Below are positions 158-26,641 of a stretch of DNA of 64,000 nucleotides, in pieces (position 1 is the stretch's first letter; every line of letters begins with the position of its first letter). The notes below the pieces were generated by a model that worked only from the letters and a program-made list of their open reading frames with translations, was not told the DNA's origin and did not search any database. The stretch comes from Azolla caroliniana (taxonomy: Eukaryota > Plantae > Polypodiophyta). Position numbers and translations under genes: made by a program. The stretch spans positions 9,238,001-9,302,000 of the forward strand of contig JBHGNT010000006.1 in assembly GCA_043228905.1 (NCBI GenBank). Reading direction: 5' to 3'.

Positions 158-224
<67 letters not shown>

Positions 225-4379: not shown

Positions 4380-4423
<44 letters not shown>

Positions 4424-4836: not shown

Positions 4837-4847
4837 AATTCCCCCTT

Positions 4848-7800
4848 CACTCCAGCATGGGATGTCTTACTAGTCCGATCCGCTTCTGGCATGCATCCGG
4901 CTTGTCGGGTATCAGTACTTTTGGTCAGCATATTTGACCCGTTCTCGGCCGTGTGGATCTTCGTCAGCACGAACTCCTAGTCATCTACTCTTTCCCGGAT
5001 CCAGTGATACCTTTGTTGGATATGCCTCATCCGGGAATGGTAGGCCGCATTCTTAGCAAGGTGGATGGCACTTTGACTGTCGCAATAGAGTCGGTATCCA
5101 TCTTGCCGGATACCGAGCTCTCCGATGAAGTTCTTCATCCATAATATTTCCTTGCCGGCTTCCACAGCCGCCATGTACTCCGCCTTCATGGTTGACAACG
5201 CAACCGTCTTCTGCAGCCTCGACTGCCACGAAACAGCTCCTACATATGTCATTACATACCCGGATGTAGATCGGCTGGTATCCACATCAGCCGACATGTC
5301 TGAATCGGTAAAACCGTCAACTTGAGGTTTTCCGGAGCCGAATCAGAGACACATATTTGAAGTGCCCTTCAAGTACCAGAGCATCCATTTGACCGCATTC
5401 CAGTGCTCCTTGTCGGGATTGCTCATAAACCGGCTCACCACTCCGACTGCGTATCCTATATCCGGTCGGGTACACACCATTGCGTAAATTAAGCTCCCGA
5501 CGGCAGAGACATATGGAACCTTCATCATATCCACCTTCTCTGCTTTCGTCTTCGGGCTTTGCTTACCGGATAACCTGTAGTTTGCCGGAAGTGTCGATCC
5601 GACCGGTTTCGCATCTAACATGTTGAACCGCTGAAGCACCTTTGTCACGTATTTTTCCTGTGACAGCCACAGTTGCTTCATTGGCCGGTTCCAGATGATA
5701 TGCATCCCCAGCATCTGTCTTGCCGGACCTAATTCTTTCATCGCAAAGGTTTGGTTGAGAGCCTTCTTCAGCATCCGTATTCTGGCTTGGTCCCGTCCGA
5801 CGATCAACATGTCATCCACGTACAGAAGGAGTATCAGGAAGTCGCCTCCTTCGAACTTCTTCACAAACACGTAGTGATCGGCCTGCGTCTTGTGGTACCG
5901 TTGATCGGTCATGAAGGAGTCGAACTTCTGGTACCATTGTCGGGGAGCCTGCTTTAGTCTGTACAAGCTCTTCTTCAACCGGCAAACCAGATGCTCCTTC
6001 CCTTTCTCCACGAATCCTTCCGGTTGCTGCATGTAGATCTCCTCTTCGAGGTCTCCGTGAAGGAATGTCGTCTTCACGTCCAGCTGCTCTACCTCAAGGT
6101 CCATGGTTGCCGCTATACTCAGCATCGTCCGGATGGAGGTCATCTTTACTATCGGGGCAAATATCTCATCGAAGTCCATGCCCTTCTTCTGCTAGAACCC
6201 CTTCACCACGATCCTGGCTATGTATCTCGGGGGTTTGTCGGCATCTCCTGGTTTCAACTTGTACACCCAGTTGTTTCGGAGTGCCCGCTTTCCTTTCGGC
6301 AACTCCACCAATTCGTACGTATGGTTTTCATGCAAGGAATCCATCTCATCCAGCATGGCACTTAACCATTTGCGGCTGTGGGTGTCATCCTTCGCTTCTT
6401 CGAAGCTTTCCGACTCTCCCTCATCGGTCAGCAGCACATGCTCTGCATTCGGAAATCTCCGGGGGGCCCTTCTCTCTCTGAGAGGATATCTCCGTCTTTG
6501 GGCTTCGGTAACTAGCTCCTCCATTTGCTCTTCATCCGAATCCGATTCGGGGTCTTGGCCTGTTCCAGTTTCAGCTTCCTCTACTTCTTATTCTGCCGGT
6601 TCGGTATCCTCACCGTAAACGGCTGGTTCCTCGAGTGCTAACCGGTCTCTTGCCGGTTGGGTATGCTCATTGTAGAATCGATCCTTACCTGTCGACTCAG
6701 AGTTCATTATCTTCTTCTCTAACTCCCAATCGGCGAGCGTCTTGTCCTCCATGAAGATAATATCTCGACTCCGGAATACCTTCTTGTCGACCAGGTCCCA
6801 CACTCGGTAGACGAACTCATCGTCATCGTAACTGAGGAATATGCATGGCCGGGTCTTCGGCGTGTCTCCGTCCATACTCTCTGCGGTGTGTCTCCATCCA
6901 AGGGTACTGAGGGTGATTTGTTTATCACATATGTCGTCGTCGACAGTGCCTCAACCCAAAACTTCTTGGGTAGTTTTGCATGCGCCAGCATACTCCGAAC
7001 CCTCTCCATTATGGTCCGGTTCATCCTCTCGGCCAGCCCGTTTAGTTCCGGCGTCTTTGGCACGGTAAATTCGAGCCGGATTCCCTTCGAGCAACAGTAC
7101 TCCTCGAACTGCCCCCTGTATTCACCTCCGTTATCTACTCGAACTGCCTTCAGCTTTCGGCCGGTTTCTCTTTCCACTCTCGCGTGGAGCTCTTTGAAAA
7201 CGGATAGCACTTGATCCTTCGTCTTCAACGGTGTGGCCCACAGCTTCCGGATGTGGTCATCTATGAACGTCACGAAGTATTGCGATCCTGCATGTGACTT
7301 CGTGTCCACTTGACACACATAAGTATGCACCAACTCCAGTGGTGCATTACGTCTCATCGGTGGCCTTGGTTGGAAGAAGGTCCGGTTTTGCTTACCGGCC
7401 AGACAATCAGTGCACTTCTCCAAGTGCACGTTCTTCACTGGAATGAGGTTGTCATCTGCAAGCCTCTTCATCCCCTTCTCGCTCATGTGACACAGCCTTT
7501 TGTGCCACAGCTCACCGGTAGTGTCAGATGCCACGTTCACTTCCTCCAGATATAACCGGGCATTCATCAGGTACAGAGTGTTTGCCTTCCAGGCCCAAGC
7601 CACAATCAGGCTCCCTTTGCTGAACTTCATAACACCGTTCTAGACGCTACCCATGTAGCCTTCATCATCTAACCGACCGGCTGATATCAGGTTTAGACGA
7701 ACCTTTGGAACGGGTCGGACATCCTTTAGCAACAGCTTGCATCCGGTTGGTGTTGTCAGCCACACGTCTCCTATGTCGACAATTCGGCATGTACCTTCAT

Positions 7801-8812
7801 TCCCCATCTGGACACAGTCGTGATCACAGGCTGAGTAAGATGAGAAGCATTTCTGGTTTGGGGTAAGGTGGAACGACACTCCGGAGTCGACCACCCAAGT
7901 CATCTCGTCGCTGGCAAGGTTTATCTCACTCTCCTCGGTGATGAGCATCAACTCTTCTTCACTTGCCGCGATTGTCGTCGTTCCCTTCCGGTTCAGCCCC
8001 CTCCGGTCTTTACCGTTCCGGTCCAGTGTCCGCTTCGAATCGGTACCGTCGGTTTCCTTGTCTTTTCGGAAGTGCCGACAGTTCTTCTGGAAGTGTCCCG
8101 GCTTGCCGCAATAGAAGCAAGTAGGCCTCCCCCTTGACTTTGACCGTGTCCCCGACTTTTCCCGGTTCTGGGGACTACGGTTCCTTTGTCTTCCGCGTTC
8201 CGATTCGGTAAGGAGCGGTTTGGGGTCGGAGCTCGTATCCTTATCTTTCCGACATGCCTCCTCATCTAGCAAGCTCGACTTCACTCTTGCTAGGGATAAT
8301 CGTTTCCCTTCCGGCCCGGCGTTGCCCAAAGTGACAACCAACATCTCCCAGCTATTCGGGAGGGAACCGAGCAGGAGTAGCGTTAGTACCTCATCGGCGA
8401 GAGGTACTTCCAATGATGTTTCCTGGTGTATCAGCCCCTAGAAGGTATTCAAGTGCTCCGCCATGCTGGAGCCATCTTGGTACCGGAGTCTTACTAGCTT
8501 CCGAAATACCGAAACCTGATTGAAAACATTTTTGTTCTGAAACATAATGTCGATCTTCTCCCAGAGCTTATGAGCCTTGCTCTCTTCATTGAAGTTGTTG
8601 TATAGACTCATGTCGATGAAGCATTGTATGTAAGCGGTTGTCTTCATGTGCATCACCTCCCATATCGTGGCGTCGATTTTGTCCGGTCTCCTGTCCCCGA
8701 ACTGAACCTGCAACCAAAGATCTTTAATCATGAGCATGTCCCTCATCTTCGACTTCCACACAGAATAGTTGGAGCCGGTGAGCTTGAACATGCCTCCCAA
8801 CGAATCTTCCAT
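4848..8812 (-). pseudogene. Copia B gag-pol with stops and frameshifts
   Basis: Minus-strand ORFs with CFYCGKPGHFQKNC knuckle, WVVDSG protease, DNGGEY and NGLAERMNRT integrase, LLYVDDML RT, CDSQSAIHLAKN RNase H. Confidence 0.93.
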
Positions 8813-8845
8813 TTTTTTCTGTGTTACCTCGCTTTGATACCACTT

Positions 8846-9122
8846 TGACAGGAACGCACGCTCCCTTTCCACAACACTCGGCCACAACCGAGTCTAAAAT
8901 CGAACACAGAAAAATGGATAATGAAATGCGCGACACAAGGGAGAGAAGAGTACATAGGATGTTTAACGTGGAAAACCCTGAGAGGGAAAAACCACGAGAG
9001 TCCACTGACTCCAAACTATCACTATATCACAATGATTACAGCAGTGAGCTCACGGAGGCAACGACCTCGTGCTCACGATCTTCGCCACAAGCGGCGGTTA
9101 CAACAGAGGCAACGACCTCTTC

Positions 9123-9154
<32 letters not shown>

Positions 9155-9488
9155 ACACTGTTACGCGCTCTCTCTTCTTGCACCAACAAGAATGACAACA
9201 ACTATGTTCTCTGTTTGCCCTAAGTCATATTTATACTAATATGACTTTTCGGCTATTTACAAATATAGCCCTGATGGACTCTCAGAAACACATTTACAAA
9301 TATGTCCCTTCATCCGGTGAGCACTTCTTACCAAGCCTTCACCATCCGGCTCTTGCCGGGTACTCCTCATCCGGTTCTCACCGGGTCTTCCGTAGCCAGG
9401 CAGACCACATTCGGTTTCGGCCTCGGCCGAGTTTACTCATCAGTACTGTTCTTCTCACTTCCCATCCGGAGGGACCTGTTTCCTAACA
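8846..9488 (-). repeat. 5' LTR of copia B (643 bp)
   Basis: Direct repeat of 4104-4836 with one copy of the 40-bp unit; adjacent to the PBS. Confidence 0.95.
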
Positions 9489-9493
9489 AGTTA

Positions 9494-10136
9494 TCCGGTC
9501 GGTCTCCTTAGCCAATTCATGCAAACACTGCGTGCTACTCACTTGGATTGCGCTAAGCGAGTTCTACAATACGTGAGCGGCATAATGGATTGCGGCATCC
9601 TCTACAAGACCGCGATGCCAATACGACTCGAGGGGTACACAAACGCCGATTGGGCCGGCTACAAAGCTGATAGAAGATCAACCTCCGGATTTGTTTTCTC
9701 CCTCGGCAGCAGAGCAATATCCTGGAGTAGCAAGAAGCAGCCCATCGTCGCTCTTTCGAGTATGGAGGCGGAATACAGGGGTGTAGCCGTAGCTGCATGT
9801 GAAGCCGTATGGCTCAAGAGGATTTTGAAGGATCTGGGCGTACCCATCAAGGATCCGACTTCCCTTTACTGCGACAACATGAGCAGTATCTATCTGGCTC
9901 GGAACCCGGTGTTCCACGCGCAGAAAAAGCACATCGAAGTGCATTATCACTTCATCCGAGAGCGCGTTCTGGCTGGCGATGTCAACCTACAGCACATTAG
10001 CACCAATCTTCAAACGGCCAACATCTTCACTAAAGCCTTAGGAGCCGACAAGCTATGGCAATTCATGACCGATCTCGGATTGACGATCCCTGACCTGCCA
10101 AGCTTGAGGGGGAGTACTGAAGACACTACACAATAA
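9494..10136 (+). pseudogene. Copia A pol, 3' part (end of RT and RNase H)
   Basis: GYTNADWAG...RRSTSG...EAEY...CDNMS...KHIEVHYHFIRE...LRGS; continues the frame broken at 4103. Confidence 0.93.
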
Positions 10137-10374
10137 CGCGTGGATTCCGCAACCACGCAACGAAGCAGCGAAGAGCTGATCTACCACGCAAAGCCGCGAA
10201 GAAAGATGCAAGCCGAAGCACAGTCTTCGCACAACGCAAGTTGGAGCACGGATTCCGCAACTCCACAACTCCGCATAAAGCGAGCCGATGCGAGTCGACG
10301 CGGACTCCGAAACGCGAGTTGAAGCGGATTTCGGATACCGTATGAAATCGACCCGACTTGAGCTTGAGGGGGCA

Positions 10375-10751
10375 TGTTGAGAATCAAGCTCAACTTGGTC
10401 TAGTGTGTGAACTCACCTTGAGAGTGAAGAGACACTCCAACGGTCAAGAGTCACCATTATGTCGCCACTTTGTATTCTAGCATTTAGTATGCGTCATAGA
10501 ATCATATTCTATGACTTATAACTTATGAGCTTTCACATTCCCCATGCTCCATGAGGCTTGTAGTTAATGAAGAGAGAGGGTGACTACATAAAGCACCCTC
10601 CTCCCACCTTGTATAATGTTGAGTCTTTCTCCTTTGTCAATATACTTTTACCTTGCGTATTCTCTGTGTTTCTCTCTTTCTCTCTCTCTTACACACACAC
10701 ATAACTCACATCTCTTCCGCTTCACAAGAATCCATCTCTTGATTCTTTACA
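10375..10751 (+). repeat. 3' LTR of copia A (377 bp)
   Basis: TGTTGAGAATC...GATTCTTTACA, preceded by the PPT; matches 1-280. Confidence 0.95.
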
Positions 10752-10890
10752 CTCTACCTAGTACTTTAAATATTTTACTAATATTTACACTTATTTTTAC
10801 ACAAAGACATTTTCGTGTGCATCCGTGCACACCCCCGTTCACACGTATCCGGCTCCCCTTTCTCCCTATGCCCGGAATCCTTCACGACAT

Positions 10891-11230
10891 CAGTATAGAA
10901 GTAATCCGGGCACCAATCAGGATTATGATCTCCCAACAGCACTACATCCTCAACTTGTTATATAAGTTCGGGATGACTGAGTGTTGATCTGTGGCAACCC
11001 CTCTCAAGCGGAACCTAAAACTAGATGCTGACTCCGGCATAGAAGAGTGTGAGCTATCTCACTATCATCAGATAGTCGAAAACCTAATTTACCTCACTAT
11101 TACTTGACCTGACCTCAGTTATCCAATCGGCCTCCTTAGCTAGTTTATGTAGACACTACGAAACATTCACTTTGATTATGCTAAGCGAGTGTTACGCTAT
11201 GTAAGTGAGACGATAAATTATGGCATTGTC
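10891..11230 (+). pseudogene. Copia C RT remnant, left of the DNA transposon insertion
   Basis: IEVIRAPIRIMISQQHYILNLLYKFGMTEC...LRYVSETINYGIV, homologous to RT of elements A and D; several stops. Confidence 0.88.
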
Positions 11231-11256
11231 GGGTCGAAGCATGCTACGGTGTACCA
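11231..11256 (+). repeat. Left terminal inverted repeat
   Basis: GGGTCGAAGCATGCTACGGTGTACCA versus reverse complement of the right end, GGGTAGAAGCACGCTACGGTGTACCA. Confidence 0.93.
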
Positions 11257-11539
11257 ACTTTTGGCCAAAAATTTAGTACTAAATCGAAGAAGAAAAGAAA
11301 CATTAAAAATTGTAAATAAATTTCAAAAAACCAAAAACAAATTCATTACGTCACACTCGAATGTTCAAAGATATTATACGTCACACTCGAATGTCCCTAG
11401 GCCATATTTAATGCATTAAGTGTTGCCCCAGTCTCCTAGGTAGAGTTGTACGAAAGCACACCTGGAGAAGGTTTCCATTGTGACAGGTGGTCAGTGTCAA
11501 TCTCTCTCTCTCTGGTATTGGTAGTCGAACGTGTCAGTT

Positions 11540-11555
11540 GGTATGTCTCTCTCTC

Positions 11556-11601
<46 letters not shown>

Positions 11602-11690
11602 GTCTCGAAGTTGTCAGACAGACACCTTCGAAGGTCTGTTTCTCTCTGTCTCTCACTCACTCTCTGTCTCTCTGTCTCTCTGTCTCTCTG

Positions 11691-11752
<62 letters not shown>

Positions 11753-12130
11753 GTCTCGAAGTTGTCAGACAGACACCGTCGAGGGTCTGTTTCTCTTTGT
11801 CTCTCACTCACTCTCTGTCTCTCTCTCTCTCTCTTCTACCTCGAAGTTGTCAGACAGACACCTTCGAAGGTCTGTTTCTCTCTGTCTCTCACTCCACCTT
11901 CGAATGTCTCTTTCTTTCTTTCTTTCTGTTTCTCTCTCTCACTCCACCTTCGATTCTCTGTTTCCCCGTTGTTGTTGTTCTTGTGTTCCCCTCTGTGCCA
12001 GGTTCGATCTCTGAACTCTGTATACGCAGCAGCCTCTGCAGCAGCCTCTGAAGTTTGTCTCCTCTGCAGCAGCCTCTGAAGTTTGCTCGTTTGTCTCCTC
12101 TGCAGCAGCCTCTGACGTTTTGCTCGTTTG
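11540..12130. repeat. Repeats upstream of the cargo gene: three ~55-bp units separated by (CT)n, then CTCTGCAGCAGCCTCTGA repeats
   Basis: CTCGAAGTTGTCAGACAGACACC occurs at ~11604, ~11755 and ~11840; GCAGCAGCCTCTG occurs four times in 12025-12115. Confidence 0.8.
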
Positions 12131-12885
12131 TCATCCTGAAGTTTTCTCGTTTGTCTCCCAAGGTATCGAAATCAAGACGGTGTGGTACCTCTGCAAGTTT
12201 AGCGACCTCCAGGTATTCTCTGTGTTGCATGCCCAACTGGTATGTATTCTTTTTCTGAATGTTTCCTCTCTGTCTGTTTTTTATTTGTATGTGTATGACC
12301 ATTTGTAGGTTTTGATTATTCATAGTCTATGTGTTGCATGCCCAACTGGTATGTTTTTGTTTTCTCTGTGTTTCTCTGTGTTTCTTTTAAAAATGTATCA
12401 CAATATTTTGTTCGATGTGGTTGTGTGTTAGACATGTTTGTACATGTGGCCAAAATGGAGTTGGCTATGATGAGTTGCTATGTTTTTGTTTTGTTAATGT
12501 TTCATGTCCATCTGTTTTTATTTTGTGTGAGTTTGGCATGGATGAGTTTTTTTCCTACTATTTTGGGTTTTTGTATGTTGGACATGGCTTGTACATGCGA
12601 TGTGATGGAGTTGGTTATGATGATTTACAAAGTTTTCGTTTTCTTTGACTTTCCTATTCGTCTGTTTTTATTTTCTGTGTGTTTGACATGGATGAGTTTT
12701 ATTTTCTGTGTGTTTGACTATTTAGGGTTATTGTGTGTTGATTTGCAATGTGATGATTTGCTATGTGGTTTGTACATGTGGTTTGTACATGCAATGTGAT
12801 GATTTGCTATGTGTTGATGGTAATTGCGATGTGTTGATGGTAATTGATTTGCTATGTGTTGATGAGAATTGTGTTGACTAGGAAA

Positions 12886-15800
12886 ATGACGAGAAGGACA
12901 CCCATAAAGAAGACATTGATGAAAGAGAAAGTGAAGACACCAGTGAAGGAAGGAAGAAGGACACCCATGAAAGAAAGCAAGAAGACACCCACAAGAGAAA
13001 GGGTGATGAATTCATCAACACAGAGAAAGAAGACCTGGCAGTACCAGTCCATCAGTCGAGACACACCTCTTGGATGGAATTATTTCCTTCGGGCACGACC
13101 TGACGTTTACCCAGAGCTGAGAGAGTGGTTGTTAAAAACCTGGGGGTCAGCACATCCCGACACAAGGCGAGGATTCCACATGAGTGGTTTGAAGAGGGAA
13201 TACATCAATTTATTGAAGACGAGATACGAACATGTTTATGATACAAATCAAATCACTAACAATGAGGTGGGTACTGTTTTTGCACGTGCTTTTGCATGTG
13301 AAGTTCAAGGTGGCATCGACGTTAATTGGGAAGATTTTAATCGGCACCGGTCAGAACATTACAAAGGGTCCTCCAGTACCAACACTGGCTTGAAGTCATC
13401 TGGAACCTCTCATGTGGATATTCCAGCTACAACACCTGTCCAACAAGTTCTAGAGGCAAAGGTACGGGCCACAATGACTGAAAAACATGAACAGATGATG
13501 GCTGGTTGCATAGCTTCTATGAGCTCAAGAATACAAGCACTACTTGCTGATTTGGAAGCAGTTAAATCAGCTGAGATACAGGCAGAAAAGAAATTTTCTT
13601 CAATAAAGACTACATATGAATGGATTGCATCGACAATCCAAAATTCAGAAAGTGAGGTGTTGAAAGAGGAGTTGAAGAAAGAGCTGAACAATATGGGTGC
13701 TCAATTACATTCACAGATGACAGACCTTGATACTTGCAGGAATGCACATGAAGAAATAGATAATAAGTTGTCAGCCTTAAAGTTGCATTCTGAGAACCTT
13801 GCATGCTTGATGCAGGATTTAAAACATAATGGTTTTGATACTTTGTGTCCATCTGTAATTGAGCACCCAAGTGGTATAGAAAGTACCATTACTAGTATAG
13901 CTATATCACGGTATTAGCTTTAAAAGTTATTTATTTCTACTTTTATGGTATAAATAAGTGAGCAGCTAATATATTATAACTTGTGTTTGCAATCTTCCAG
14001 GTGTATATTTTGTGGCCTCGGATTCAAGCTGGAGGCTATGGATGTTGTGATTACACCATGCTTGCACACATATCATGTGCTATGTGCTAAGTATCATTTT
14101 GAGAAAGAGAATACATGTATGGACTGTAAAACTACAATTGCGGCTGAGTGGTACTATGCTTGGGGTTTAAAAGTACACCCGTACGGTATGTGGCTCTACT
14201 ATTCTATTGTTTGTATTATATAATGTCAATTATCATTTGGACTAGAACTAGTGTATGCCACAATTCATACTTAAAATTTAGGAGAACAATGGATTAGTAT
14301 TAGTGTATCTCTAACAACAATGGGATAGTATTGGCAGTACTCTTAATATATAATTGGTATGTGTAGTTAGTTGAAGGGATATTTTCCAGAATTAGTAGTA
14401 CTAAAAGGGAACCAGGTACAACATCGTCCAATCTATATTGTAACTTGCCTAGTATTAGTTTAGTAAACACTATACTTATAGTACACTGTTGACTGTTAGT
14501 ATTGTTTGTGTAACTTGGAAATTAGTACTAGTAATGTAATTTGGGAACAAGGTGTCACTTAAATTGCTGAATAATAGTACAGTTTCTGTAATTTGGAAAT
14601 GAGGTGTGTGAAACACATATCACGTTTAGTACTAATACTGTTCAAGTTCAATACTGTTGGTGTAATTAGTACAAGTTATGTAACTAGGTGTGTAGAACAC
14701 ATATCACGTTTAGTATTACTTGTGTGCAAAATACCAATCTACATTTGTTGGATTAGTACTTAGTAATTACTACATTGTTCATGATTAGTACTAGTTTTAT
14801 ACTTTGTGAACTAAGTTTCTAGTACATTGCTCATGATTAGTAATAGTTTTGTAACTAAGTGAGTAGTACATTGCTCATGATTAGTACTAGTTTTGTAATT
14901 TGGGAACTGAGTAGTACTTTGTTCCCTATTAGTACTAGATTTGTACCTTATTTGTGTAAATTGGTAACTAAGTGAGTAGTATATTGTGCATGATTAGTAC
15001 TATTTGTGTAATTTGGGAACTAAGTGAGCTGTACATTGTTCGGGATTAGTACTAGTTCAGTGATTTAGGAAATAAGTGAGTAGTACATTGTTCAAGATTA
15101 GTACTACTTATAAATTTGACAAAGTCAGTGGTGCATTTTTCGGGATTAGTACTTGTGCATGATTAGTACTACTTGTGTATATTGTGCATGATTAGTACTA
15201 TTTGTGTAATTTGCGAACTAAGTGAGCAGTACATTGTTCCTTATAAGTACTAGTCCACTAATTTAGGAAACAAGTGAGTAGTACATTGTTCATGATTAGT
15301 ACAGTGGTACATTGTTCGGGATTAGTACTCCTTGTGTAACATGGTAACTAAGTGAGTAGTATATTCTGCATGATTAGTACTACTTGTGTATATTGTGCAT
15401 GATTAGTACTACTTGTGTAAATTGGGAACTAAGTGAGCAGTACATTGTTCCTTATTAGTACTAGTTCAGTAAATTAGGAACTATGTGAGGAGTACATTGT
15501 GACCTACATTGTATATTTTAGATGATGGTACTAACGTTCAACGTTTTTTTGTTTCTTGCAATGAATGTCGTAGTGTCAAGCAACTCCACGCCAGGGAAGG
15601 TCATGGAACTACCAGCCCCTGTGCCTAAACCCTCAATATCTGCCGCACATTCCAAGGTTCAGGGACCATCATTACCAACAACCTATGATTTTTATGATGA
15701 GGATGAATGTATGAGAAGGGCCATTGGAGCAGTGGAACATATGCTTCTACAAACAAATTCCCCAAGCTCCGGTCAACAATTTGAAATAGAGCCCACTAAG

Positions 15801-17387
15801 AAGAGAAATGATGTGTCTTTAGAAATAGAGCCCAGTAAGAAGAGAAATGCTGCAAGAATGTTGTATGGAAACGGCAAGAAAAGGAAAGTTGAATGCAATG
15901 GTGAGTCATATAAGTTCTCACCTGTCAGGAGCGTTGTCAACCTAATCCATTGTCTAATACCATGTACTTGTGTTGCTAGCTGATGACGAAATGATATTTG
16001 GTGACGGAGATACGAGTTCAAAACCTGATCGTGAAGACGAATTTATCACACTCCCAGGTAAACGTCAAAAGCCAGACTTTGAAAACAATGATTTAGCTCA
16101 TAACAACCCTATTATATTGTTGCTTTTGGTGCATTCTATAGATCATAGCAACACTGTTGAGCACCTAGATGTTGTGGAGAAGATGACCGAGCCCACCACT
16201 TGCAATGGGGTATCTACGGCTGTACAGTATGACCATGTAACATTAGGTAAAAATGTGGCCCAAAACCCTATGTTCATTGTTTGCAAACTTTTGAGTATGT
16301 GAGTTGATACTAATATTGTTTGGAATCCCATTAATTAGGTTTACAAGAGCAGCCTGAATCGGGAACTTCATGGAGCACAAGTGCAGAGTCAGATTCTGGG
16401 ATTAACCTTTCCACGGAGGCAGATTCTGGAAGCACATCTTCCACACATGAGGATTGTGAGAAAAACGAAGCATTCATATGTGAAGAGCAGCTGGCATGTC
16501 CAAACAACAGTATGTCTAAAGAAGCCCATGAGGAGTGTGGAAAGAATATGGCAAGTACTGAAGAGAAGATTGAAGCCCATGAAGAGTCTGGAAAGAATAT
16601 GGCAAGTACTGAAGAGAAGATTGAAGCCTATGAAGACTCTGGAAAGAATATGGCAAGTACTGAAGAGAAGATTGAAGCTCATGAAGAGTGTGGAAAGAAT
16701 ATGGCAAGTACTGAAGAGAAGACTGAAGCCCATGAAGAGTGTGGAAAGAATATGGCAAGTACTGAAGAGCAGACTGATTGTACTGATAATGTGTTAGTAG
16801 TGTCTACTGATAATGTGCTAGTACTGTCTAAAGATTCTGATGAGGAGTATGGAAAGAACATTGCTAGTAATGAAGAGGAGCTTGATTGTACTGAGAATGC
16901 CCAAATGGATCGTGGAAAGAACATCGCTTTCCCTGAAGATAAGCCTGATTGTACAGAATCACATGAGGAGCCTGATTGTACAGATAAGCCTGATTGTACA
17001 CGTAGTCTTAAGAATGAGTTGACAGCCACCGTACAAGAGGAGTTGACCATGACTACTGCCATAGTCCACATACAGGAGTCTAATAAGAACGAGTGTACAG
17101 GCATCATTGATGATGATAGGGGAATAAAGATGAGTGATAATTTGACTATCGACAGCACCTTTGTGGATTTGTGTACAAGCATTGCAGTTGCAGAAAACAC
17201 AGTTGCTCTCTCAAGCTTGCCACCAGTACAAGGTGCCCGCGCATCCACGCCTATCTCTGATGCCTCTGATGATGAAGTGCCACTTAGTCAGCTCATACCT
17301 AAAGGCTTTAAGATAAAGAAGAATGTAAAATCTGGCACCAACAACAAGCGCATTACAAGATCGGCCAAGTTACCCTCTAGTGCCTGA
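12886..17387 (+). CDS. Transposon cargo protein, ~922 aa: basic N-terminus, Trp-rich unknown domain, coiled coil, RING-H2, acidic repeats
   Basis: Predicted GT-AG exons 12886-13910, 14001-14185, 15574-15900, 15980-16057, 16142-16246, 16339-17387 join in frame (2769 nt, no internal stop). Exon 2 encodes C-x2-C-x15-C-x-H-x2-H-x2-C-x10-C-x2-C. Confidence 0.75.
14330..15500. repeat. Degenerate AGTAC(T)-rich tandem array in cargo gene intron 2
   Basis: Roughly 30 AGTAC copies by eye, in recurring units such as ATGATTAGTACTA and AAGTGAGTAGTACATTG. Confidence 0.85.
16521..16775 (+). repeat. Coding minisatellite, 5 x 51 bp (EAHEECGKNMASTEEKI)
   Basis: Units start at 16521, 16572, 16623, 16674 and 16725. 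Confidence 0.93.
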
Positions 17388-18307
17388 TTTTCTTCCGATT
17401 GTACTTGAACTTTAGCTGTTAGTGATGTCTGAAATACCTCTATTTGGATACCAAAATACTGTTTCAATTGCCAATGTCAAAATTCCACTTCTGTATTTTG
17501 TAGAAACAATGGGAATATACTTTTTGATCTAAGTATTCCTCTTTTTACAACGTTTTGTTTCTTTTTTGAGATCATCTCCTGATGAGTTGCCAAGTCTTTG
17601 AGTCTGTTGTAGATAAAATGCTTGAAATTCTTCTTAGCTTGCTAGGAAAATTTAGGTTTTCAGGTGTTAATGATGATAAACAGAAAATATCGGGTGTTAT
17701 TGAAGTATAGACTGTTTCATCAATCCCATTTGGAGGGTAACCAGAATTTGTGCAAATTGTTGAAGCAATGTGGGCCATATTTTGATGATATCATCCCAAT
17801 GGATGAACTATCCACTAACAGTAGTAAGGAAACACTCCCCTTTTTGAGCTATCACAAATTATTGTTTCAGGAGTTGGATTATTTTGTTAAGGAATTTGAG
17901 GCTTCATTGCACATTTGCTTCTTGAAGAATGAACTTACAGTATAAAATCTTACAATATTAAAGTCATAATTTGAATTCAACTTACAGATTTATGTGCCTA
18001 CAGAGGACACACCAACGGCAATGAATCTAGACTTTATCAAGAAGATATACAATATTTTTACTCATTTTACCATGGCTCTGCAAAACTTCTATGCTCAAAT
18101 AACATCAGGAAACATGAGCAATATCGGCAATGAAGAAATCCAAGTCTTGTTGACAACAACTAATATATTATGAAAGATAAGTACAAGTGGTTGACAGGCA
18201 TAAACACTTTAGAAGAAAGATGAAATATATCAATTCATTTGTCAATCATCAAAATTAATAGTGAACTCCAAGTATTGAGAGGGTACAATGTATTGAGAGG
18301 GTGACTT

Positions 18308-21300
18308 TCAAGCATTAAATAGAGAGACCTCCCCTAATATGTGCTCATGAACCTCTTGGGGGACCTTGTAGACAGTGTTGTATCCCTTAACCTTGTGCTT
18401 TGCTTGAGTCATATTGAATTTGATCGCAAGAATGGCATCAGCGTAGATTATTGCGATGGGTGCTTCTTTTAGTAATGCATATGTGTTCTTGCACTGCGGC
18501 AACTTTGCATAATAGTTTCCATACACGACAGACTCACCAACGTTGAAATTGTTGCCCCAGCCATCCCTCACCACTTCTTTCAATAATGTCTTTCCTTGCT
18601 TGCACACCACAATGTAGTAGTCTTCTAAATCTTCATTCTGAGGAGATTTGAGCACTGCAAAATGATCTCCAACTTCCAATAAAACTGCCAAGTCTTGATT
18701 TTGGTTGTAGTATACAATATCGTTTGAATGCACATCATCTTCAATATCATCTTGTCGTTCAGGCTCAAGCTTCTGCAACTTCCAGGGCTCCACGATTGAT
18801 AGGTTGATGCATTTATCCCAAGCTTCATCTATACACATGGAACAAAAGCATGATAAACTACGTAGTAACAATTGTGTTGTGTCCTTGCGGCTAAACCCTA
18901 ACACACAATGGGTGCTGCGTGTGCCTTTCACGGTTTTACAACCATATGATTTAGTTCTATCGACCTCATCAGCGCGAACTTCAACAAACAATCTGTTCTT
19001 ACCATCATTTGACATCTTCCATGTTAGCCACTGCACAACATCATGTGCATTTTGTAGCTTAGCACCATTATTATCCAACTGCTCACTTGTAAGGGCACGT
19101 TTGATCACAGCCCCCGCGCCATCATGCTCTCCTTTTCCATGTCCAGACCCGAGGTAATTCCATTGCATACGAATGTTGAATAAGGAGAAATACCTGCTTT
19201 TGTAACTCAGGTTTCCAACAAAATTAGTACTATGTTGTCAATAGAGAGTACTACACTTCCATTAATACTGGCATCCATTTAATACTAACTTAGTATGGAT
19301 ATAACTTAGTACTAACTTAGTCTGGTTTATACTATGAGTACAAGATGAGTACTTTACATCCCCTTGTATAGTACAATGTGTCTATGGAGAACCCTTCACA
19401 TGGATTAAAACATAATTAGTACAATTCTCTTAAGGACGGACAATACTATAAGTACAAGATGAGTACTTTACATCCTTTTGTAAACACAACATAGTACAGA
19501 AGCAACACACAACATAGTACAATGTGTCTATGGAGAACCCTTCACATTGATTAGTCGATACTTAGTACAATTCTTAGTACTAACTTAGTCTGGTTTATAC
19601 TATGAGTACAAGATGAGTACTTAACATCCTCTTGTATAGTACAATGTGTCTATGGAGAACCCTTCACATGGATTAAAACATAATTAGTACAATTCTCTTA
19701 AGGACGGACAATACTATAAGTACAAGATGAGTACTTTACATCCTTTTGTAAACACAACATAGTACAGAACCAACACACAACATACTACAATGTGTCTATG
19801 GAGAACCCTTCACATTGATTAATCGATACTTAGTATGGATATAACTTAGTACTAACTTAGTATGGTTTATACTATGAGTAGAAGATGAGTACTTTACATC
19901 CTCTTGTATAGTACAATGTGTCTATGGAGAACCCTTCACATGGATTAAAACATACTTAGTACAATGCTCTTAAGGACGGACAATACTATGAGTACAAGAT
20001 GAGTACTTTACATCCTCCTGTAAACACAACATAGTACAGATACAACACACAACATAGTACAATGTGTCTATGGAGAACCCTTCACATGGATTAAAACATA
20101 CTTAGTACAATGCTCTTAAGGACGGACAATACTATGAGTACAAGATGAGTACTTTACATCCTCCTGTAAACACAACATAGTACAGATACAACACACAACA
20201 TAGTACAATGTGTCTATGGAGAACCCTTCACATGGATTAAAACATACTTAGTACAATGCTCTTAAGGATGGACAATACTATGAGTACAAGATGAGTACTT
20301 TACATCCTCCTGTAAACACAACATAGTACAGATACAACACACAACATAGTACAATGTGTCTATGGAGAACCCTTCACATGGATTAAAACATAGTACAAAC
20401 AAAATTAGTATGCATGCATCCATTCACAAGTGCAAGATTCGAATAGTTACAAACATAATTAGTATGCATCCATGTGAATAGTACTGTTTGTTAATAATTA
20501 CAAACATAATTAGTATGCATGCACTAACACAAGAATTACTTCCTTACACATTGCATGGTAAGTACTAAACATATGGATTAAAAATTACCTGGCGATAAAG
20601 TAGAACGATCGTGCCACCTTAAACTGCGAGGCAGCACCATCAGACCAAACCCAATGACGGTTAAAGGTTACCCCTAGAGAAAATAAATCTGCATGGTGAA
20701 GCTTAAAACAATGTTGAACAAATAGTGTATCATGCTTTTTATCATCTGAAATGTAAAATATTGATTTCTTATGTAACTCACCGTCTTGCCTCCAATAGCA
20801 AATATGCACAAGTATTGTACATTGATCATTGTACCAATGCATTGATTGAACCTCATTCTGAACTTTAAATGTATAGTTTTCTGCAAAGTCAATAACAGAT
20901 ACGATGACACCCGTTGGTAAGTTATTAATACATTCCTTGAATTGTGAATTTTGCCAATAACTCCGGAAGTTATGTGGAATGAACTCCCCAAGTTGTTTCT
21001 TAAATTCTGAGACAAGGGTAGCAGCACATGTCTCCTTATATACTTCCTTGATACGCTTAGTTACAACTCCCTTGCCAATATTTTCAGTCACATACTCTAA
21101 ATATTTCCATTTCACGATATGACTGTTTCCCAAATCAAGCTCCTGCATACAAAATAATGGTAGCGGACAAACCTTACATGTTCTTAATAGACATGTACGA
21201 CGATGCCACTCACATGATGGTTCTTTTTCACAAACACAAGACCTCCATAGCTCAGAAACAGATGCATAAGTCATGTTTCGTGCATTACACCTATTATCCT

Positions 21301-22236
21301 CCCCATTTGGTCTACATATCTCACAAGTGCAGACACATAATTCCCCGTGTATACCCTTACAATCAGTACGCATTGCATTCACGGCTAGCCTTAACATGTC
21401 CATCTTCACATGGTACACACAACAACATGTATTCCTCTCATTTAATTTTCTAACATAAAATGGTTTCAAACCTTGGAACTTGCGGAATCCAACAGTCAAG
21501 CTTGGATGTTGATCTTTAAAGTTCATGTACAATTCAGCCTACATCAACCAATATATATAGCAAACATTAATATACAGTTGGTCAAAACACAAAGTTATGG
21601 AATGTGAAATGATATAAAAAAATGGAATACCTCTGTCATCTCCAAGAAGTGTCTAGGGTGAATCTGGTACTTACCCTGACTTATTCGTTGTCTACACACG
21701 TCCTTCTTATTTGGTGAGACACGCGTATTTTTGGCCCAAAATGAATCCACTTTCTCAATAATCTCTTGAGATAAGGCATCACATCGTCGTCTACGTCCCA
21801 ACCCCATCCACTTGAATTTGTTTGAGTGTATATTTTGGCGATGTTTCCTCAAGTTCCTTCTTTGAATACCCAGGGCTAAGGCAACTTTAGTATCACTATA
21901 TTTTTTTCCTCTCGCACCGTTCACAACCATGTGTAGGGCTGCCCTCTTTGCAGCAAGTTTGTCTAAGCTCTCTACACCTTTCACTAAGTCTAGGGATGAC
22001 TTCATAGACTCTACAATCTCTTCTGAAACACATTGGTCCCTAAATTTTATTCTCTCCATGTCTTCATTCAAACTTTGATGGTGTAACACTCTACAGATAA
22101 TATCCCTACGATCCTCTTCACTAAATCTCTTTGTTATTTCTACCAAATAACGGACTATGTGAAGAACCACTCGTCTCTTAGTCCTTTCAGATATGCATGA
22201 GTTACTTGACAACTCACTCTCGTTAGGAACCCCCAT
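18308..22236 (-). CDS. Sola2-like DDD transposase, ~813 aa, intact, 3 coding exons (an extra upstream exon is possible)
   Basis: Exons 22236-21631, 21538-20589 and 19193-18308 join in frame at GT-AG sites (2442 nt). Cys-rich region (CCCVYH, CVCTCEIC, CLLRTCKVC), then catalytic motifs VIDFAENY, WSDGAASQFK and GHGKGEHDGAG, and C-terminal SCFCSMC. Confidence 0.85.
19290..20395. repeat. Compound tandem array in transposase intron 2
   Basis: AAGATGAGTACTTT recurs eight times (~19340, 19455, 19610, 19725, 19880, 19995, 20140, 20285): ~270-bp two-part units followed by ~146-bp units. Confidence 0.92.
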
Positions 22237-22316
22237 TCGGTCACTAGATTTATCCGCAAAAATTAAGTGGCTTGCAAAAGTAGTTAATGTTATATAGACT
22301 CAACCAAGAAAACACA

Positions 22317-22910
22317 ATCAAATGTTTTTAAATGTGGCCTGCAAAGTGAAAGATATTTCGTTTCAAACATTAGAATTACATATCAAATATGACAATTGTC
22401 AGTTCTAAAATTTTTGTACTGAAATATGAAGAAATGTAACATTTTAGTACTGAAAATAAAAAAAACGGTTTGGTGAAAGGAACCTCCAATGGTGGACGGA
22501 GCGTTGGATATGCCGCCTCGATTTGGTGGAAGGAACCTCCAATGCCGCCTCGATTTGGTGGAAAAAGCCACAAATCACCACGACACCAAATCAAATGTTT
22601 TTAAATGTGGCCTGCAAAGTGAAAGATATTTCGTTTCAAACATTAGAATTACATATCAAATATGACAATTGTCAGTTCTAAAATTTTTGTACTGAAATAT
22701 GAAGAAATGTAACATTTTAGTACTGAAAATAAAAAAAACGGATGGAAGGAACCTCGAATGGATGGAGGGGGCGTTGGATATGCCGCCTCGATTTGGTGGA
22801 AGGAACCTCCAATGGTGGACGGAGCGTTGGATATGCCGCCTCGATTTGGCGGAAGGAACCTCCAATGCCGCCTCGATTTGGTGGAAAAAGCCACAAATCA
22901 CCACGACACC
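22317..22910. repeat. Tandem duplication (~273-bp period) upstream of the transposase, with internal sub-repeats
   Basis: ATCAAATGTTTTTAAATGTGGCCTGC at ~22317 and ~22590; ATGCCGCCTCGATTTGG repeated five times. Confidence 0.9.
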
Positions 22911-23394
22911 AACTTCAATGGATGGATGTAAGAAAGTCGTTGTCGAAGAAGTCACTATTGGCTGCTACCAACAGTCTCTGTACCTCGACCTAAACCCTAA
23001 CAAAAACAGAAACCCTAAAAAAATCAGAAATCCTCAACTTAAACGCTCAAAACAGACATGGATGTCTGAGATTTAGATTGGAGGAAATCAGAAACTGAAC
23101 ATGGATCTGTGATGAAAAGCTCAGAGGGATAGAGGAAGAGGAGTATGAGGGGAACCGCCAAAACGACGTGAGGGGAAGCGCCAAAATCGACGTGAGGGGA
23201 AAATAGCCCCCAAAATGGAATGAACATCTCCTCACCTGTTCCCCCCACTCCTTCTACAATAAATGACACTTGTACTACAGTCACCCCACTCTCCAAAATC
23301 GATTTTCTTTTTCTCTGATTTTTTTTTTTTGAATTATTCATACTAACAGTACTAAAAGTACTGACAATTTTTGTGGCCAAAAACAGTACTTTTC

Positions 23395-23420
23395 TGGTAC
23401 ACCGTAGCGTGCTTCTACCC
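23395..23420 (-). repeat. Right terminal inverted repeat
   Basis: TGGTACACCGTAGCGTGCTTCTACCC followed by the TSD TGTC. Confidence 0.93.
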
Positions 23421-23945
23421 TGTCTACAAATCAACCACACCAATTCGACTCGAAGGGTACACCAATGCTGATTGAGTTGGCTGCAAGGCCGATAGACGAT
23501 CGACTTCAGGATTCGTTTTCTCCCTCAGCAGCGAAGCCATATCTTAGAGCAGCAAAAAGCAACTAACAGTCGCACTTCGAGCATAGAAGCCGAATATAGG
23601 GGTGCGGTCATCACACCATGTGAAGCCGTTTGGCTGAAAAGAGTATTGAAGGATCTAGGCATTCCCATCAAGGATCAGATTCTCCTTTACTACGACAACA
23701 TGAGCAATATTCATATGGCTCCGAACCCAGTGTTCCACACGCGCACAAAGCATATCGAAGTGCACTATCAGTTCATCCAACAACGCGTTCAGGCTGGAGA
23801 TGTCAATATGCAGCACATCAATATGAACCTTCAAGTAGCCGGCATCTTCACCAAAGCCTTAGGAGTCAACAAGCTCAGGCCATTCATGATGGACCTTGGC
23901 CTAATGATAGCCGCATTGTCGAACTTGAGGGGGAGTACAACAACC
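23421..23945 (+). pseudogene. Copia C RNase H remnant, right of the DNA transposon insertion
   Basis: YKSTTPIRLEGYT...YDNMS...HTRTKHIEVHYQFI...LRGS, with stops and a frameshift. Confidence 0.88.
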
Positions 23946-26409
23946 AACGTGCACAACATAGCAACTAAGCAACCGATCGAAGACGACCAAAGGAGTAGTG
24001 ATTCCATCACCAACTTGGCCAATCCTAAGATGGGCACGTCTCAACTAATTATGGACAAACCCCACAGTTTGATTCCATGCCAACTCAACTGAGAAGGGCC
24101 AAAATCAAAGTTTACAGAATAAGGTGGATCTGGCCCTATGTGAGGAGATTCCATCTTTAAATTCAAATGAGGAAGCACAAGATGTTGGAACTGTTCACAT
24201 TGGATTTGGGAAAGCAACAAGATCACAAAACATAATAAGTGGTAATAAGTTAGTAAGGTATGCCAAAGTGTTTTGGATTTGTTCATTTTGTTCACCAAAT
24301 ATGGCAAGTATTAATGGTTTGTGATACTTGTAATTTTGGCCTAAAAGATAGGTTCCAACTTGCATGTTGAAGGTTGGATCTGTTGGTCTACGTGGGTGAT
24401 GTTGATTTGCGATCATTGTGCAAAGCGGGGGAGATGGCATCCACCCGGATGATGTCAAGCGTATTCAACATGTGGATGGAATATACGCAACCCTAAGAGG
24501 TTTGCAGTTGGTATTGGATTGTCGATCCACTTTGGGTGCAACTTGTCATTCAAAGAAACAAGGTGGATCATATCCTAGGACGTGTGCGAAAGCAGGATTA
24601 TGTATTCTCACCCAGAGTGCTTGCTGGTCATTGGGTGCTTTGGATGAAGATTCTCAATAGTCAAACCAATTTGGATGCACACAAGGTGACCAACTAGGTA
24701 GTATTTTGGCAATCCATTGAATGAGATGGTTGCAAGGGAGGTCTCAAGCACACTTGGAGACCATTGCATCATACCGAAGAACCAACATCACGACCTCCGC
24801 ATCCCACCTCACCCAAATGTGCCGACTATGGATATTATGTGATGCATATGATTCGGAGGCTAGTGGAGGAGTTCATACAAGGCTTGAGATCTCTCCAGAT
24901 TTTGTAAGTGTCTTTCATGTTCTGATTGTGTACAAATAGTCTTCGTAAGTTGGTTCTTATAATTGTTGTTTGATAAGGGTTTGAGCACTAGTTTGGACAT
25001 GAAGACATGGAGCTTCTTCAGATGACTTGGGCAAGTCTTGTTTTGGGCCGATAGATTTCATAAGTTTTGGAATTTTGCCATTACATTTTGCATATTCCAA
25101 TTTTGTAAATTTTGATTGAACTGGAGCATATGTTAACTACCCCATGTCAACTAGTAGCCAGACTTGAAGACATTTGTGAGTAACCCGGCTCAATGTAGTA
25201 GCCTGATTCAAAGTCATTAATGAGTAGCCTAGCTCATGTAGTAGCCCGACTTGAAGACACCAATGAGTAGCCCGACCCAATGTAGTAGCTTAATGAGAAC
25301 CCCAATCAAAATGACAAAAGTCAAGCCAACTACATGTGATGATCACATTTCAACGATCATAAGCGATAATTCAGCCATTCTTTTTCCATCATAAATGATC
25401 ATTAAAGGTAGTCAGCTTCATATTTGATCATTTTGCAATCATTTTTCCCTCAATTTTCGTTATAAACTCAACTTTCTACTTTTTGTCATTTTCATAAGTG
25501 CTAGCAATTTCATACACTTACCTATAATTTGTGATCATGTAGGGAGACGTTGATTTCATATTTGTCATGTCGGAAGACAAAATAGAGGAAATATCTCTAT
25601 ATTCCACAATTTCAATTACATTTGCTCAAGACAACAAGTTTGGAGCATCCGAAACCGAGGACAACGTAGATCCCTTGATGTATTGTTTCCCCCGTGTATT
25701 TTGCATTCAATCGAGATACACATGAATTGATGGTTAAAGATTTATTAGGAATAATTAAGCTCATGATTGAATGATTTATAGATATCGCAAAGGGTGCACC
25801 TCTTAATCTTAACTCATGGAGGCACATGAAGAGTCGACTCATGCTAGGAAATAAGAGGCAATTTACCTTACGGTGCCACCTAATCTTCAAGAAGTTACAT
25901 AGAGCAATGAAGAGAGATAGTGGGAAATAAATTTGCACTCAATATGGGGCGCATCGCATCACCCACTCCCACAGACTCTTAAAGAGTTAAAAAAACATTG
26001 GGCGTTGGATCTTCGTGATCATGGAATTGCTTGTGCATGCATAAAAGCATGAATTGACCAATGTTGTTGCCAATTAATACAAAACGCAACAACAAATAAC
26101 ATATATGGGAATGAGTGTAAGTAAATATAATAAGACTAAACCTGCATAAGTGATCGAGGTAGAAGCATGTAAGTTACACGATACTCTCGTGGATGTTCAA
26201 ATCAAGAATAGCACATGTTTGCATAAAGCGGTTTGAAACGATGAATTATTGCAAAGATGACTAATTTGATGTTGGGTGTGCAAGGCATGTTGCCAAAATG
26301 AGCCGATCAAAAGAACTAGTGCAGAAATCTACGACTAGTTCATTAGAGCAAAGTTTCTCTTAGATTCTTTCTGATACCAATGGAGGTGCATAATATGGTC
26401 AACAAGTTG

Positions 26410-26587: not shown

Positions 26588-26641
<54 letters not shown>

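What the first reader, a model, noticed from the sequence alone, without database searches (positions are those of the whole stretch)
12886..17387. Unrecognised transposon-borne coiled-coil + RING-H2 protein (candidate E3 ligase or anti-silencing accessory factor)
Seen: six exons splice into one ~922-aa ORF that the ORF track shows only as fragments. It has a basic N-terminus with repeated (K/R)TP, a ~110-aa Trp-rich domain I do not recognise (WQYQ...LGWNYF...EWLLKTW...VNWEDF), a long coiled-coil-like segment, a complete C3H2C3 RING, NLS-like KKR motifs, acidic repeats and a basic tail after SDDEVPLSQL. Established: RING-H2 domains usually act as ubiquitin E3 ligases. Inference: a dedicated accessory gene that may degrade host silencing factors, regulate the transposase, or bind the AGTACT arrays.
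Basis: partly seen in the sequence, partly recalled or inferred. Interest (0 to 1): 0.8.

Follow-up and report, generated by a model that had tools for sequence, protein, structure and literature searches.

The report
Fern transposon carries its own RING-ligase
A cut-and-paste transposon family, likely of ferns, carries beside its transposase a conserved second gene for a protein with an unrecognised domain, a predicted coiled coil and a RING finger, which likely acts as a ubiquitin ligase that would dock on repeats inside the element and help it escape host silencing.

Summary
Six GT-AG exons give a stop-free 922-aa frame. It lies inside a complete 12,190-bp Sola-type element (11231-23420; 26-bp TIRs, TGTC duplication, empty site confirmed), convergent with a stop-free 813-aa transposase.

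It is a family gene, not a one-off capture. Among 24 related loci, 4 of 8 with enough upstream DNA carry the same TIR at unrelated insertion sites, and 3 of 3 that reach far enough carry the transposase. A subfamily 62% identical keeps the splice sites and all eight RING ligands (dN/dS 0.21 RING, 0.34-0.41 exon 1). Named relatives are only Adiantum hypothetical proteins.

The N-terminal domain (aa 53-160) models confidently (pLDDT 91) with no Pfam or fold match found. AGTACT arrays fill non-coding introns about tenfold above chance in both subfamilies, as VANC target motifs do in VANDAL elements.

Not shown: splicing in RNA, E3 activity, DNA binding, anti-silencing. The RING lacks the usual Trp and Pro, and the arrays could be transposase sites. 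Best reading: a self-targeted chromatin E3 (0.4). New variant of transposon accessory gene.

The parts
11227..11230 (.). left target-site duplication TGTC
   Evidence: empty-site alignment to the copia copy at 9489-9738 is gap-free with one TSD copy and needs a 4-nt gap with two
11231..11256 (+). left terminal inverted repeat, 26 bp, begins GGG
   Evidence: 2 mismatches in 26; same terminus in L004, L005, L007, L013
11275..11280 (.). subterminal AGTACT inside a palindrome, 45 nt from the left end
   Evidence: sequence; also in 4 of 4 loci that hold the left end
12886..13910 (+). accessory gene exon 1: basic T-P-x-K/R tail (aa 1-52), unrecognised domain (aa 53-160), linker, predicted helical hairpin (aa 199-314)
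13042..13365 (+). unrecognised ~110-aa helical domain (aa 53-160); W86, R95, G96 invariant in 14 rows
   Evidence: pLDDT 90.6, pTM 0.85; also in P0037, probability 97%
13480..13827 (+). predicted antiparallel coiled-coil hairpin (aa 199-314)
   Evidence: (generic hairpin matches only)
14001..14185 (+). exon 2: RING-H2 (aa 343-384), Lys385 after the eighth ligand, W-x4-W-G extension
14186..15573 (.). intron 2 with an array of 20 AGTACT (2.1 expected), consensus context TGATTAGTACTA
15574..15900 (+). exon 3 with KKR/KKRK motifs
15980..16057 (+). exon 4
16142..16246 (+). exon 5
   Evidence: matching splice sites in L010
16339..17387 (+). exon 6: acidic region with five 51-bp repeats (16521-16777, each holding AGTACT), DDE(V/L)PLS motif and basic tail
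18308..22236 (-). transposase gene, three predicted exons (22236-21631, 21538-20589, 19193-18308), 813 aa, 0 stops; D419, D502, D543
19194..20588 (.). transposase intron 2 with tandem repeats and 15 AGTACT (1.5 expected)
23348..23390 (.). three subterminal AGTACT, 35-72 nt from the right end
23395..23420 (-). right terminal inverted repeat
23421..23424 (.). right target-site duplication TGTC

Best explanation
This is a conserved second gene of a Sola-type transposon family, likely of ferns, whose product is likely a nuclear RING ubiquitin ligase that would bind the element's own AGTACT arrays and likely weakens host silencing there. Shown: the gene travels inside the TIRs, faces the transposase tail to tail, and is under purifying selection in two subfamilies; the motif arrays sit in the element's non-coding parts. 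Predicted: a basic T-P-x-K tail and a compact unrecognised domain at one end, a coiled-coil hairpin that would bring the RING back near that domain, then a long acidic, probably disordered region with nuclear-localisation-like motifs. Inferred and untested: the N-terminal part recognises the arrays (about 0.5), the RING is catalytically active (about 0.6), and the substrate is a chromatin or silencing protein at the element (about 0.5 given the first two or a looser version of them). The family-gene part alone I put at 0.93.
For: Element bounds. Same TIR 1.2-1.4 kb upstream in 4 of 8 loci with at least 1.3 kb upstream, at four unrelated flanks. Convergent transposase in 3 of 3 loci that reach it. 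dN/dS against six subfamily-B loci: RING exon 0.21 (bootstrap 0.07-0.60 and 0.09-0.48 for the two tested), exon 1 0.34-0.41, transposase end 0.15. RING exon identity by codon position 84-92/90-92/70-77%, against 62-66% for intron 1, in 8 of 8 loci. All eight ligands and the Lys after the last ligand are kept in 6 of 6 subfamily-B loci; PMC13061254 names a hydrophobic residue before the second Cys and an Arg/Lys linchpin as the E2-side features (figure legend), and both are present. AGTACT: 20 vs 2.1 and 15 vs 1.5 expected in the two long introns, 0 in 1,836 nt of transposase exons, 13-14 vs 0.5-0.8 in intron 2 of 4 of 4 subfamily-B loci; VANC binds a short motif arrayed in introns, intergenic and terminal non-coding regions (PMC5735166 passages). 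S/T-P-x-K/R motifs recur in the basic tail of 9 of 10 proteins checked (their likeness to DNA-binding SPKK motifs and CDK sites is recalled).
Against: The RING lacks the central-helix Trp and the Pro after the seventh ligand that HRD1 shows in the alignment (His and Met/Leu here), and it scores under the Pfam cut-off. The motif also lies 35-72 nt inside both ends, where transposases usually bind (recalled). Its core is the same in both subfamilies although the N-domain is only 61-66% identical, whereas VANC motifs diverge with their proteins. Contigs from two runs show joints with minus-strand GT-AG ends across exon 3, which suggests antisense RNA, and several contigs cross the predicted donors unspliced. 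11 of 24 loci carry stops or frameshifts in exon 1. The 24 loci appear to come from one set of related assemblies, and the six subfamily-B loci are 82-99% alike, so they are not independent.
Confidence: 0.4

Rival explanations
1. Transposition partner or regulator. The protein works with the transposase, as the second gene of two-gene elements does, or ubiquitinates it to time or limit its activity. The arrays are then transposase or transpososome sites.
For: Fixed convergent pairing as in RAGL elements (PMC7204232 passages); motif copies next to both TIRs; motif core unchanged while the transposase end is 86% identical between subfamilies; four CDK-like T-P-x-K/R sites (meaning recalled).
Against: Relatives of the transposase occur widely (53 hits, including Klebsormidium, Ceratodon and Calypogeia), whereas named relatives of this gene came only from a fern, which suggests the transposase family works without it; their neighbourhoods were not checked. 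Most motif copies lie 1-8 kb from the ends.
Confidence: 0.27
2. Diffusible E3 that destroys a host defence protein. The unrecognised domain is a substrate-binding module and the arrays have nothing to do with this protein.
For: Architecture of recognition domain, coiled coil and RING; the N-domain is the least constrained folded part (dN/dS 0.42-0.48 vs 0.25-0.33 and 0.21) and is not strongly basic (15 K+R, 14 D+E).
Against: A global suppressor would release all elements and cost the host (argument as in PMC5735166); it leaves the arrays in the gene's own intron unexplained.
Confidence: 0.18
3. Pseudo-ligase or scaffold. The RING is a zinc-stabilised interaction module, for example a partner or decoy for a host RING complex, with no E2 activation.
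For: Trp and Pro missing; weak likeness to PCGF5 over the helix, H-F-E shared (E 0.019); BARD1 and TRAF2 are RING proteins without E3 activity (PMC13061254 passage).
Against: The linchpin Lys and the hydrophobic residue before the second Cys are kept in all intact copies examined and in P0037. The PCGF match is not significant.
Confidence: 0.1
4. Captured host gene riding as a passenger (Pack-type capture), with no function for the element.
For: Intron-rich structure; P0037 has the same three-part layout and an unknown neighbourhood.
Against: Purifying selection across dS about 0.5-0.8 while inside elements. The five named hits looked up are dispersed hypothetical fragments from one fern genome, one fused to an integrase piece. 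No named conserved gene among the six hits or those.
Confidence: 0.05

Closest known systems
Sola DNA transposons (PMC10741241 passage; original description not held). Sola2 subgroup by recalled motifs only.
   Same: 4-bp TSD, short TIRs, three conserved Asp in the transposase, size within the reported range, seed-free plant host.
   Different: The passage mentions no second gene. This family has a spliced convergent RING gene and motif arrays.
Sola1-1_Ec32 of Ectocarpus with its ParB-like/DNA-methyltransferase accessory gene (PMC12477816 passages)
   Same: Large Sola element with an accessory gene on the strand opposite the transposase, proposed to act on its own copies.
   Different: Different cargo: no ParB or methyltransferase domain here, but a RING and an unrecognised domain; Sola1 by name versus a Sola2-like enzyme.
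VANC anti-silencing proteins of Arabidopsis VANDAL (Mutator-like) elements (PMC5735166 abstract and passages)
   Same: Element-encoded accessory protein with a repeat-rich variable region; a short motif arrayed in introns, intergenic and terminal non-coding DNA.
   Different: Other superfamily; no sequence or Pfam link found; binding and demethylation are shown for VANC and untested here; the motif core does not differ between the two subfamilies here.
RAGL/ProtoRAG transposons and the RAG1 RING (PMC7204232 passages)
   Same: Two convergent genes between TIRs; a transposon-borne RING whose RAG1 counterpart has E3 activity.
   Different: There the RING is part of the transposase itself. Here it is in the separate gene, is C3H2C3, and is joined to other domains.
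RING-H2 E3 ligases such as HRD1/synoviolin, Arkadia and RLIM
   Same: Ligand pattern and spacing; weak sequence matches (E 0.005-0.05).
   Different: No central-helix Trp and no Pro after the seventh ligand; Lys instead of Arg as linchpin; a W-x4-W-G extension.

Membership tests
Sola superfamily | 4-bp target-site duplication | tested here: met
   TGTC on both sides; empty site confirmed; feature from PMC10741241
Sola superfamily | Terminal inverted repeats (11-1124 bp reported) | tested here: met
   26 bp, 2 mismatches
Sola superfamily | DDD transposase | tested here: met
   D419 and D543 align with Asp in 12 of 12 homologs, D502 in 11 of 12 (one row shifted); that these three are the catalytic triad is inferred
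Sola2 subgroup | Homology to curated Sola2 transposases and G-R-G termini | not testable with these tools
   No Repbase sequences on hand. No Pfam hit above cut-off and no NCBIfam hit, as expected for Sola (PMC5751038). Motifs DFAENY, WSDG, GHGKGxxDG and the GGG terminus fit Sola2 from recall only.
RING-H2 E3 ligases | Eight zinc ligands C3H2C3 with RING spacing | tested here: met
   aa 343-384; kept in 6 of 6 subfamily-B loci, lost in 2 dead copies
RING-H2 E3 ligases | Pfam zf-RING_2 gathering score | tested here: not met
   24.3 bits against 27.3, E 3.7e-5; P0037 passes zf-RING_11, 27.3 against 27
RING-H2 E3 ligases | Hydrophobic residue before the second Cys; Arg/Lys linchpin after the eighth ligand | tested here: met
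   C-I-F-C and C-K385; features from the legend in PMC13061254
RING-H2 E3 ligases | Central-helix Trp and Pro after the seventh ligand (typical, recalled; not universal) | tested here: not met
   His and Met/Leu where HRD1 has Trp and Pro
RING-H2 E3 ligases | E2-dependent ubiquitin transfer | not testable with these tools
   needs an assay
VANC-type anti-silencing factor | Encoded inside the element; short motif arrayed in its non-coding parts | tested here: met
   feature from PMC5735166
VANC-type anti-silencing factor | Sequence homology to VANC (DUF1985/DUF287, recalled) | tested here: not met
   neither family was listed for any exon tested or for 14 N-domain rows; so not a VANC member, at most VANC-like in logic
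VANC-type anti-silencing factor | Motif diverges together with the protein | tested here: inconclusive
   AGTACT core shared, flanks differ between subfamilies; only two subfamilies seen
VANC-type anti-silencing factor | Binds the motif and removes silencing marks | not testable with these tools
   needs EMSA, ChIP and methylome data
Pack-type captured host gene | Conserved host ortholog outside elements and neutral decay inside | tested here: not met
   dN/dS well below 1; no named conserved ortholog found; P0037 context unknown
Any solved fold (N-domain) | Structural match | tested here: inconclusive
   best Z 3.0, rmsd 4.1, 72 aligned, among 48,161 chains; no Foldseek hit at E<=0.001

The most novel reading that the evidence does not exclude
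Fern Sola elements have evolved a self-targeting ubiquitin ligase: a DNA-binding domain of a new fold reads the AGTACT arrays in the element's own introns and ends, and the RING strips or rewrites silencing chromatin there. This would be a ubiquitin-based counterpart of VANC, a sequence-specific anti-silencing system run by the transposon, and a compact programmable chromatin E3.
Probability: 0.25. Interest if true: 0.87.

Novelty: new variant of a known kind. Interest (0 to 1): 0.62.

Why it matters
Few transposon accessory genes have a known mechanism, and the best-studied plant case (VANC) leaves open how silencing is lifted after binding (PMC5735166). This family offers a testable candidate with an enzymatic handle (a RING), a candidate target motif and an apparently intact copy. 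It also defines a conserved ~110-aa domain with a confident model and no match found. With the unreviewed notes on Sola elements carrying a ParB-methyltransferase in the same genome, it suggests that fern Sola lineages recruit different cargo against chromatin defence. That bears on how elements persist in very large, heavily methylated fern genomes (background knowledge). If the protein is only a transposase partner, it would still be a second-gene requirement not found for Sola in my searches.

Tried and rejected
Whole genome: none is held, so copy number in the host was not counted.

RNA: no RNA holder listed among 24 runs. Five runs of guessed or unknown kind were laid as contigs (X15, X19, X20, X23 on the window; X15, X19, X20, X21 on L010). 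None gave a joint at any predicted intron, which is no evidence either way. One poly-A-plus-adapter loose end at 17566, in one contig of a diverged copy, is only a hint of a 3' end.

Homodimer prediction (aa 53-320, two copies): no answer, score 0.00.

N-domain searches that found nothing usable: Pfam, NCBIfam, PHROGs (best E 0.0014, not for the window row), PDB sequences (best E 0.98), Foldseek PDB and viral (52, 53), VIA wide (51), ESM Atlas (36; for P0037 only generic RING clusters under 0.9). A miss does not show that the fold is new. The full exon-1 model matched only generic helical hairpins.

No relative in viral contigs, prokaryote genomes (98) or phages (96). No Rfam family in the element (91).

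Literature: no report of a RING accessory gene in Sola or another TIR element turned up in searches. The original Sola paper and one VANC paper were not held. Repbase and all supplements were not seen and may bear on novelty.

The per-column conservation list lost the P0037 row through a name clash, so I use instead. The tree only restates the subfamilies; P0037 is a long branch.

Rejected: the single-copy capture reading; 'WQYQ' as part of the domain; the exon-6 repeats as a conserved protein feature (L010 exon 6 has 0 AGTACT and lacks the 51-bp array).
Full report
1. Observation. The six exons join through GT-AG introns into a 922-aa frame without stops. The listed features are present: T-P-x-K/R repeats, a RING-H2 at aa 343-384, long helices, KKR motifs, an acidic exon 6 and a basic tail. 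The 'Trp-rich' label is weak (4 Trp in 113 aa), and its opening WQ is a 6-nt gain absent from the 11 other rows of A1.

2. The element. Inverted repeats of 26 bp at 11231-11256 and 23395-23420 are flanked by TGTC on both sides. Removing the element and one TGTC restores a gap-free alignment to another copia copy in the window, while keeping both needs a 4-nt gap. On the minus strand, three predicted exons give an 813-aa transposase without stops. D419 and D543 align with Asp in 12 of 12 homologs examined and D502 in 11 of 12; these 12 were chosen from 53 hits that include Klebsormidium, Ceratodon and Calypogeia proteins. A 4-bp duplication, TIRs and a DDD enzyme are the Sola features given in PMC10741241 (passage). 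The assignment to Sola2 rests on recalled motifs. The two genes are convergent, 920 nt apart.

3. Is the gene a family feature? Exon 1 found 6 clusters at 60-98% identity, three with 31, 37 and 12 members, and 35 representatives among 1.84 billion proteins. Of 10 distant proteins looked up, 5 are named, all as Adiantum nelumboides hypothetical proteins; the host is therefore likely a fern (inference). A metagenome scan gave 24 loci. Exon 1 is whole and stop-free in 8, stop-free but partial in 5, and broken in 11. Of the 8 loci with at least 1.3 kb upstream, 4 hold the same TIR 1.2-1.4 kb before exon 1, each with a different flank. The 4 misses are three 5'-truncated or decayed copies and one fragment beside a MYB-like gene. 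All 3 loci that reach far enough downstream hold the transposase in the same convergent layout: L010, and the internally deleted dead copies L002 and L011. The loci appear to come from related assemblies, and high-coverage contigs may be collapsed from many copies, so they do not count as independent hosts.

4. Gene model. The intron-1 acceptor AG is kept in 9 of 11 loci (the two others are the dead copies) and the intron-2 donor in 9 of 9 that cover it. L010, 63% identical in exon 1, has matching sites around exons 3-6, probably one more intron in exon 3, and a homopolymer frameshift just before the tail. P0003, P0004, P0084 and P0085 stop where exon 1 stops. The Adiantum model P0027 runs the coiled coil straight into the RING (42% identity over aa 231-397), and P0037 has domain, coiled coil and RING in one frame (E 5e-21). 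P0032 weakly echoes the exon-3 and tail motifs. RNA gave no test of the joins (see Tried and rejected). In one search, joints 15795-15922 (two runs, two studies) and 15639-15922 (one run) have minus-strand GT-AG ends with a shared donor, which suggests antisense spliced RNA in organism D. Their short sides (27-30 nt) and the 85% likeness setting make this a weak to moderate sign.

5. Selection. Against six subfamily-B loci, dN/dS is 0.21 for the RING exon, 0.25-0.33 for the coiled coil, 0.42-0.48 for the N-domain and 0.34-0.41 for all of exon 1; the transposase end gives 0.15. Bootstrap upper limits for the two loci tested stay below 0.8. Second codon positions of the RING exon are 90-92% identical where intron 1 is 62-66%. 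The protein, and the RING most of all, has been maintained while inside mobile elements.

6. Protein anatomy. The basic tail has three or four S/T-P-x-K/R motifs in 8 of 10 proteins checked, two in P0028 and none in P0037. Residues 53-160 form a compact helical domain (pLDDT 90.6, pTM 0.85 from 14 sequences) shared with P0037 (probability 97%); no sequence or fold match was found. Two long helices model as an antiparallel hairpin, which would place the RING near the N-domain (inference). The RING keeps all eight ligands, a hydrophobic residue before the second Cys and a linchpin Lys (features from a legend in PMC13061254). It lacks the Trp and Pro seen in HRD1. The remaining 520 aa are poorly conserved and mostly acidic, apart from the basic motifs and the DDE(V/L)PLS tail.

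7. Motif arrays. AGTACT occurs 47 times in the 12,190-nt element and 12 times in the other 51,810 nt. It is concentrated in intron 2 (20 vs 2.1 in shuffles), transposase intron 2 (15 vs 1.5), both subterminal regions and the exon-6 repeats, and absent from exon 1 and the transposase exons. Subfamily B has 13-14 copies in its otherwise diverged intron 2 (4 of 4 loci) and 4 in the intergenic stretch of L010. Arrays kept independently around one palindrome point to a binding protein encoded by the element (inference). Whether that is this protein or the transposase is not resolved.

8. Mechanism. I commit to a self-targeted chromatin E3 (0.4): the N-terminal part docks on the arrays and the RING ubiquitinates a local silencing or chromatin protein. 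The layout matches what PMC5735166 describes for VANC (abstract and passages), and an accessory gene acting on its own Sola element has been proposed in Ectocarpus (PMC12477816 passages). Rivals: transposase partner or regulator (0.27; compare the convergent RAGL pair, PMC7204232 passages), diffusible degrader of a host factor (0.18), pseudo-ligase scaffold (0.10), passenger capture (0.05). Shown steps: linkage, selection, arrays, ligand pattern. Inferred steps: splicing, DNA binding, catalysis, substrate, anti-silencing.

9. Novelty. It is not a VANC (no homology found) and not a RAG1-type RING (separate gene). Eight literature searches gave no report of a RING accessory gene in Sola. I also read passages of PMC5751038, PMC10294476, PMC4455052, bioRxiv 10.1101/2021.09.26.461848, PMC13534243, PMC5753468 and PMC6890710, which added only classification and the presence of Sola repeats in Ceratopteris. 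The original Sola paper, Repbase and supplements were not seen. Earlier scan notes had nothing on this gene or this transposase. Verdict: a real, selected, apparently undescribed accessory gene family with an unrecognised domain; a new variant of a known kind; interest 0.62.

Noticed in passing
window 15640-15921 (minus strand): Contig joints with minus-strand GT-AG ends (one donor at 15921, acceptors at 15796 and 15640) in runs X15 and X19 suggest spliced antisense RNA over exon 3; an X15 contig also leaves the gene at 16414 into sequence like the transposase-intron repeat, as a deleted copy would.
   Followed up: partly
window 13034-13041: A 6-nt gain turns the conserved K-K-M-Y into K-K-T-W-Q-Y in this copy only; origin unexplained.
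   Followed up: partly
L002:2053-3775 and L011: Internally deleted dead copies in which intron 2 of the RING gene is fused to transposase exon 3; they keep the AGTACT array (11 vs 1.1 expected in L002).
   Followed up: partly
L001:1-3283: A 1.7-kb fragment of the element (N-domain and coiled coil, no RING, stop-free, new short end also seen in P0002) lies next to a frame resembling a MYB gene (by eye); possible fixed truncated derivative or misassembly.
   Followed up: no
window 16521-16777: The five 51-bp coding repeats each carry AGTACT, so the acidic repeats may be a by-product of motif amplification.
   Followed up: partly
window 12240-12882: T-rich stretch with a GTATGT donor-like site and an AG three bases before the ATG; likely a 5'-UTR intron behind a CT-repeat promoter region.
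   Followed up: no
window 60809-62665 (minus strand): Host gene with TDBD, PHD and IDM1_C domains, an IDM1-like factor; about 37 kb from the element and no link seen.
   Followed up: no
window 33205-37392 (plus strand): Single-exon 1,395-aa PPR protein frame.
   Followed up: no
window 1-11230 and 23421-30900: Nested copia retrotransposon remnants surround the element.
   Followed up: partly
protein P0037: 405-aa protein with the same domain, coiled coil and RING in one frame and no acidic tail, only 24-33% identical; source organism and neighbourhood unknown.
   Followed up: partly
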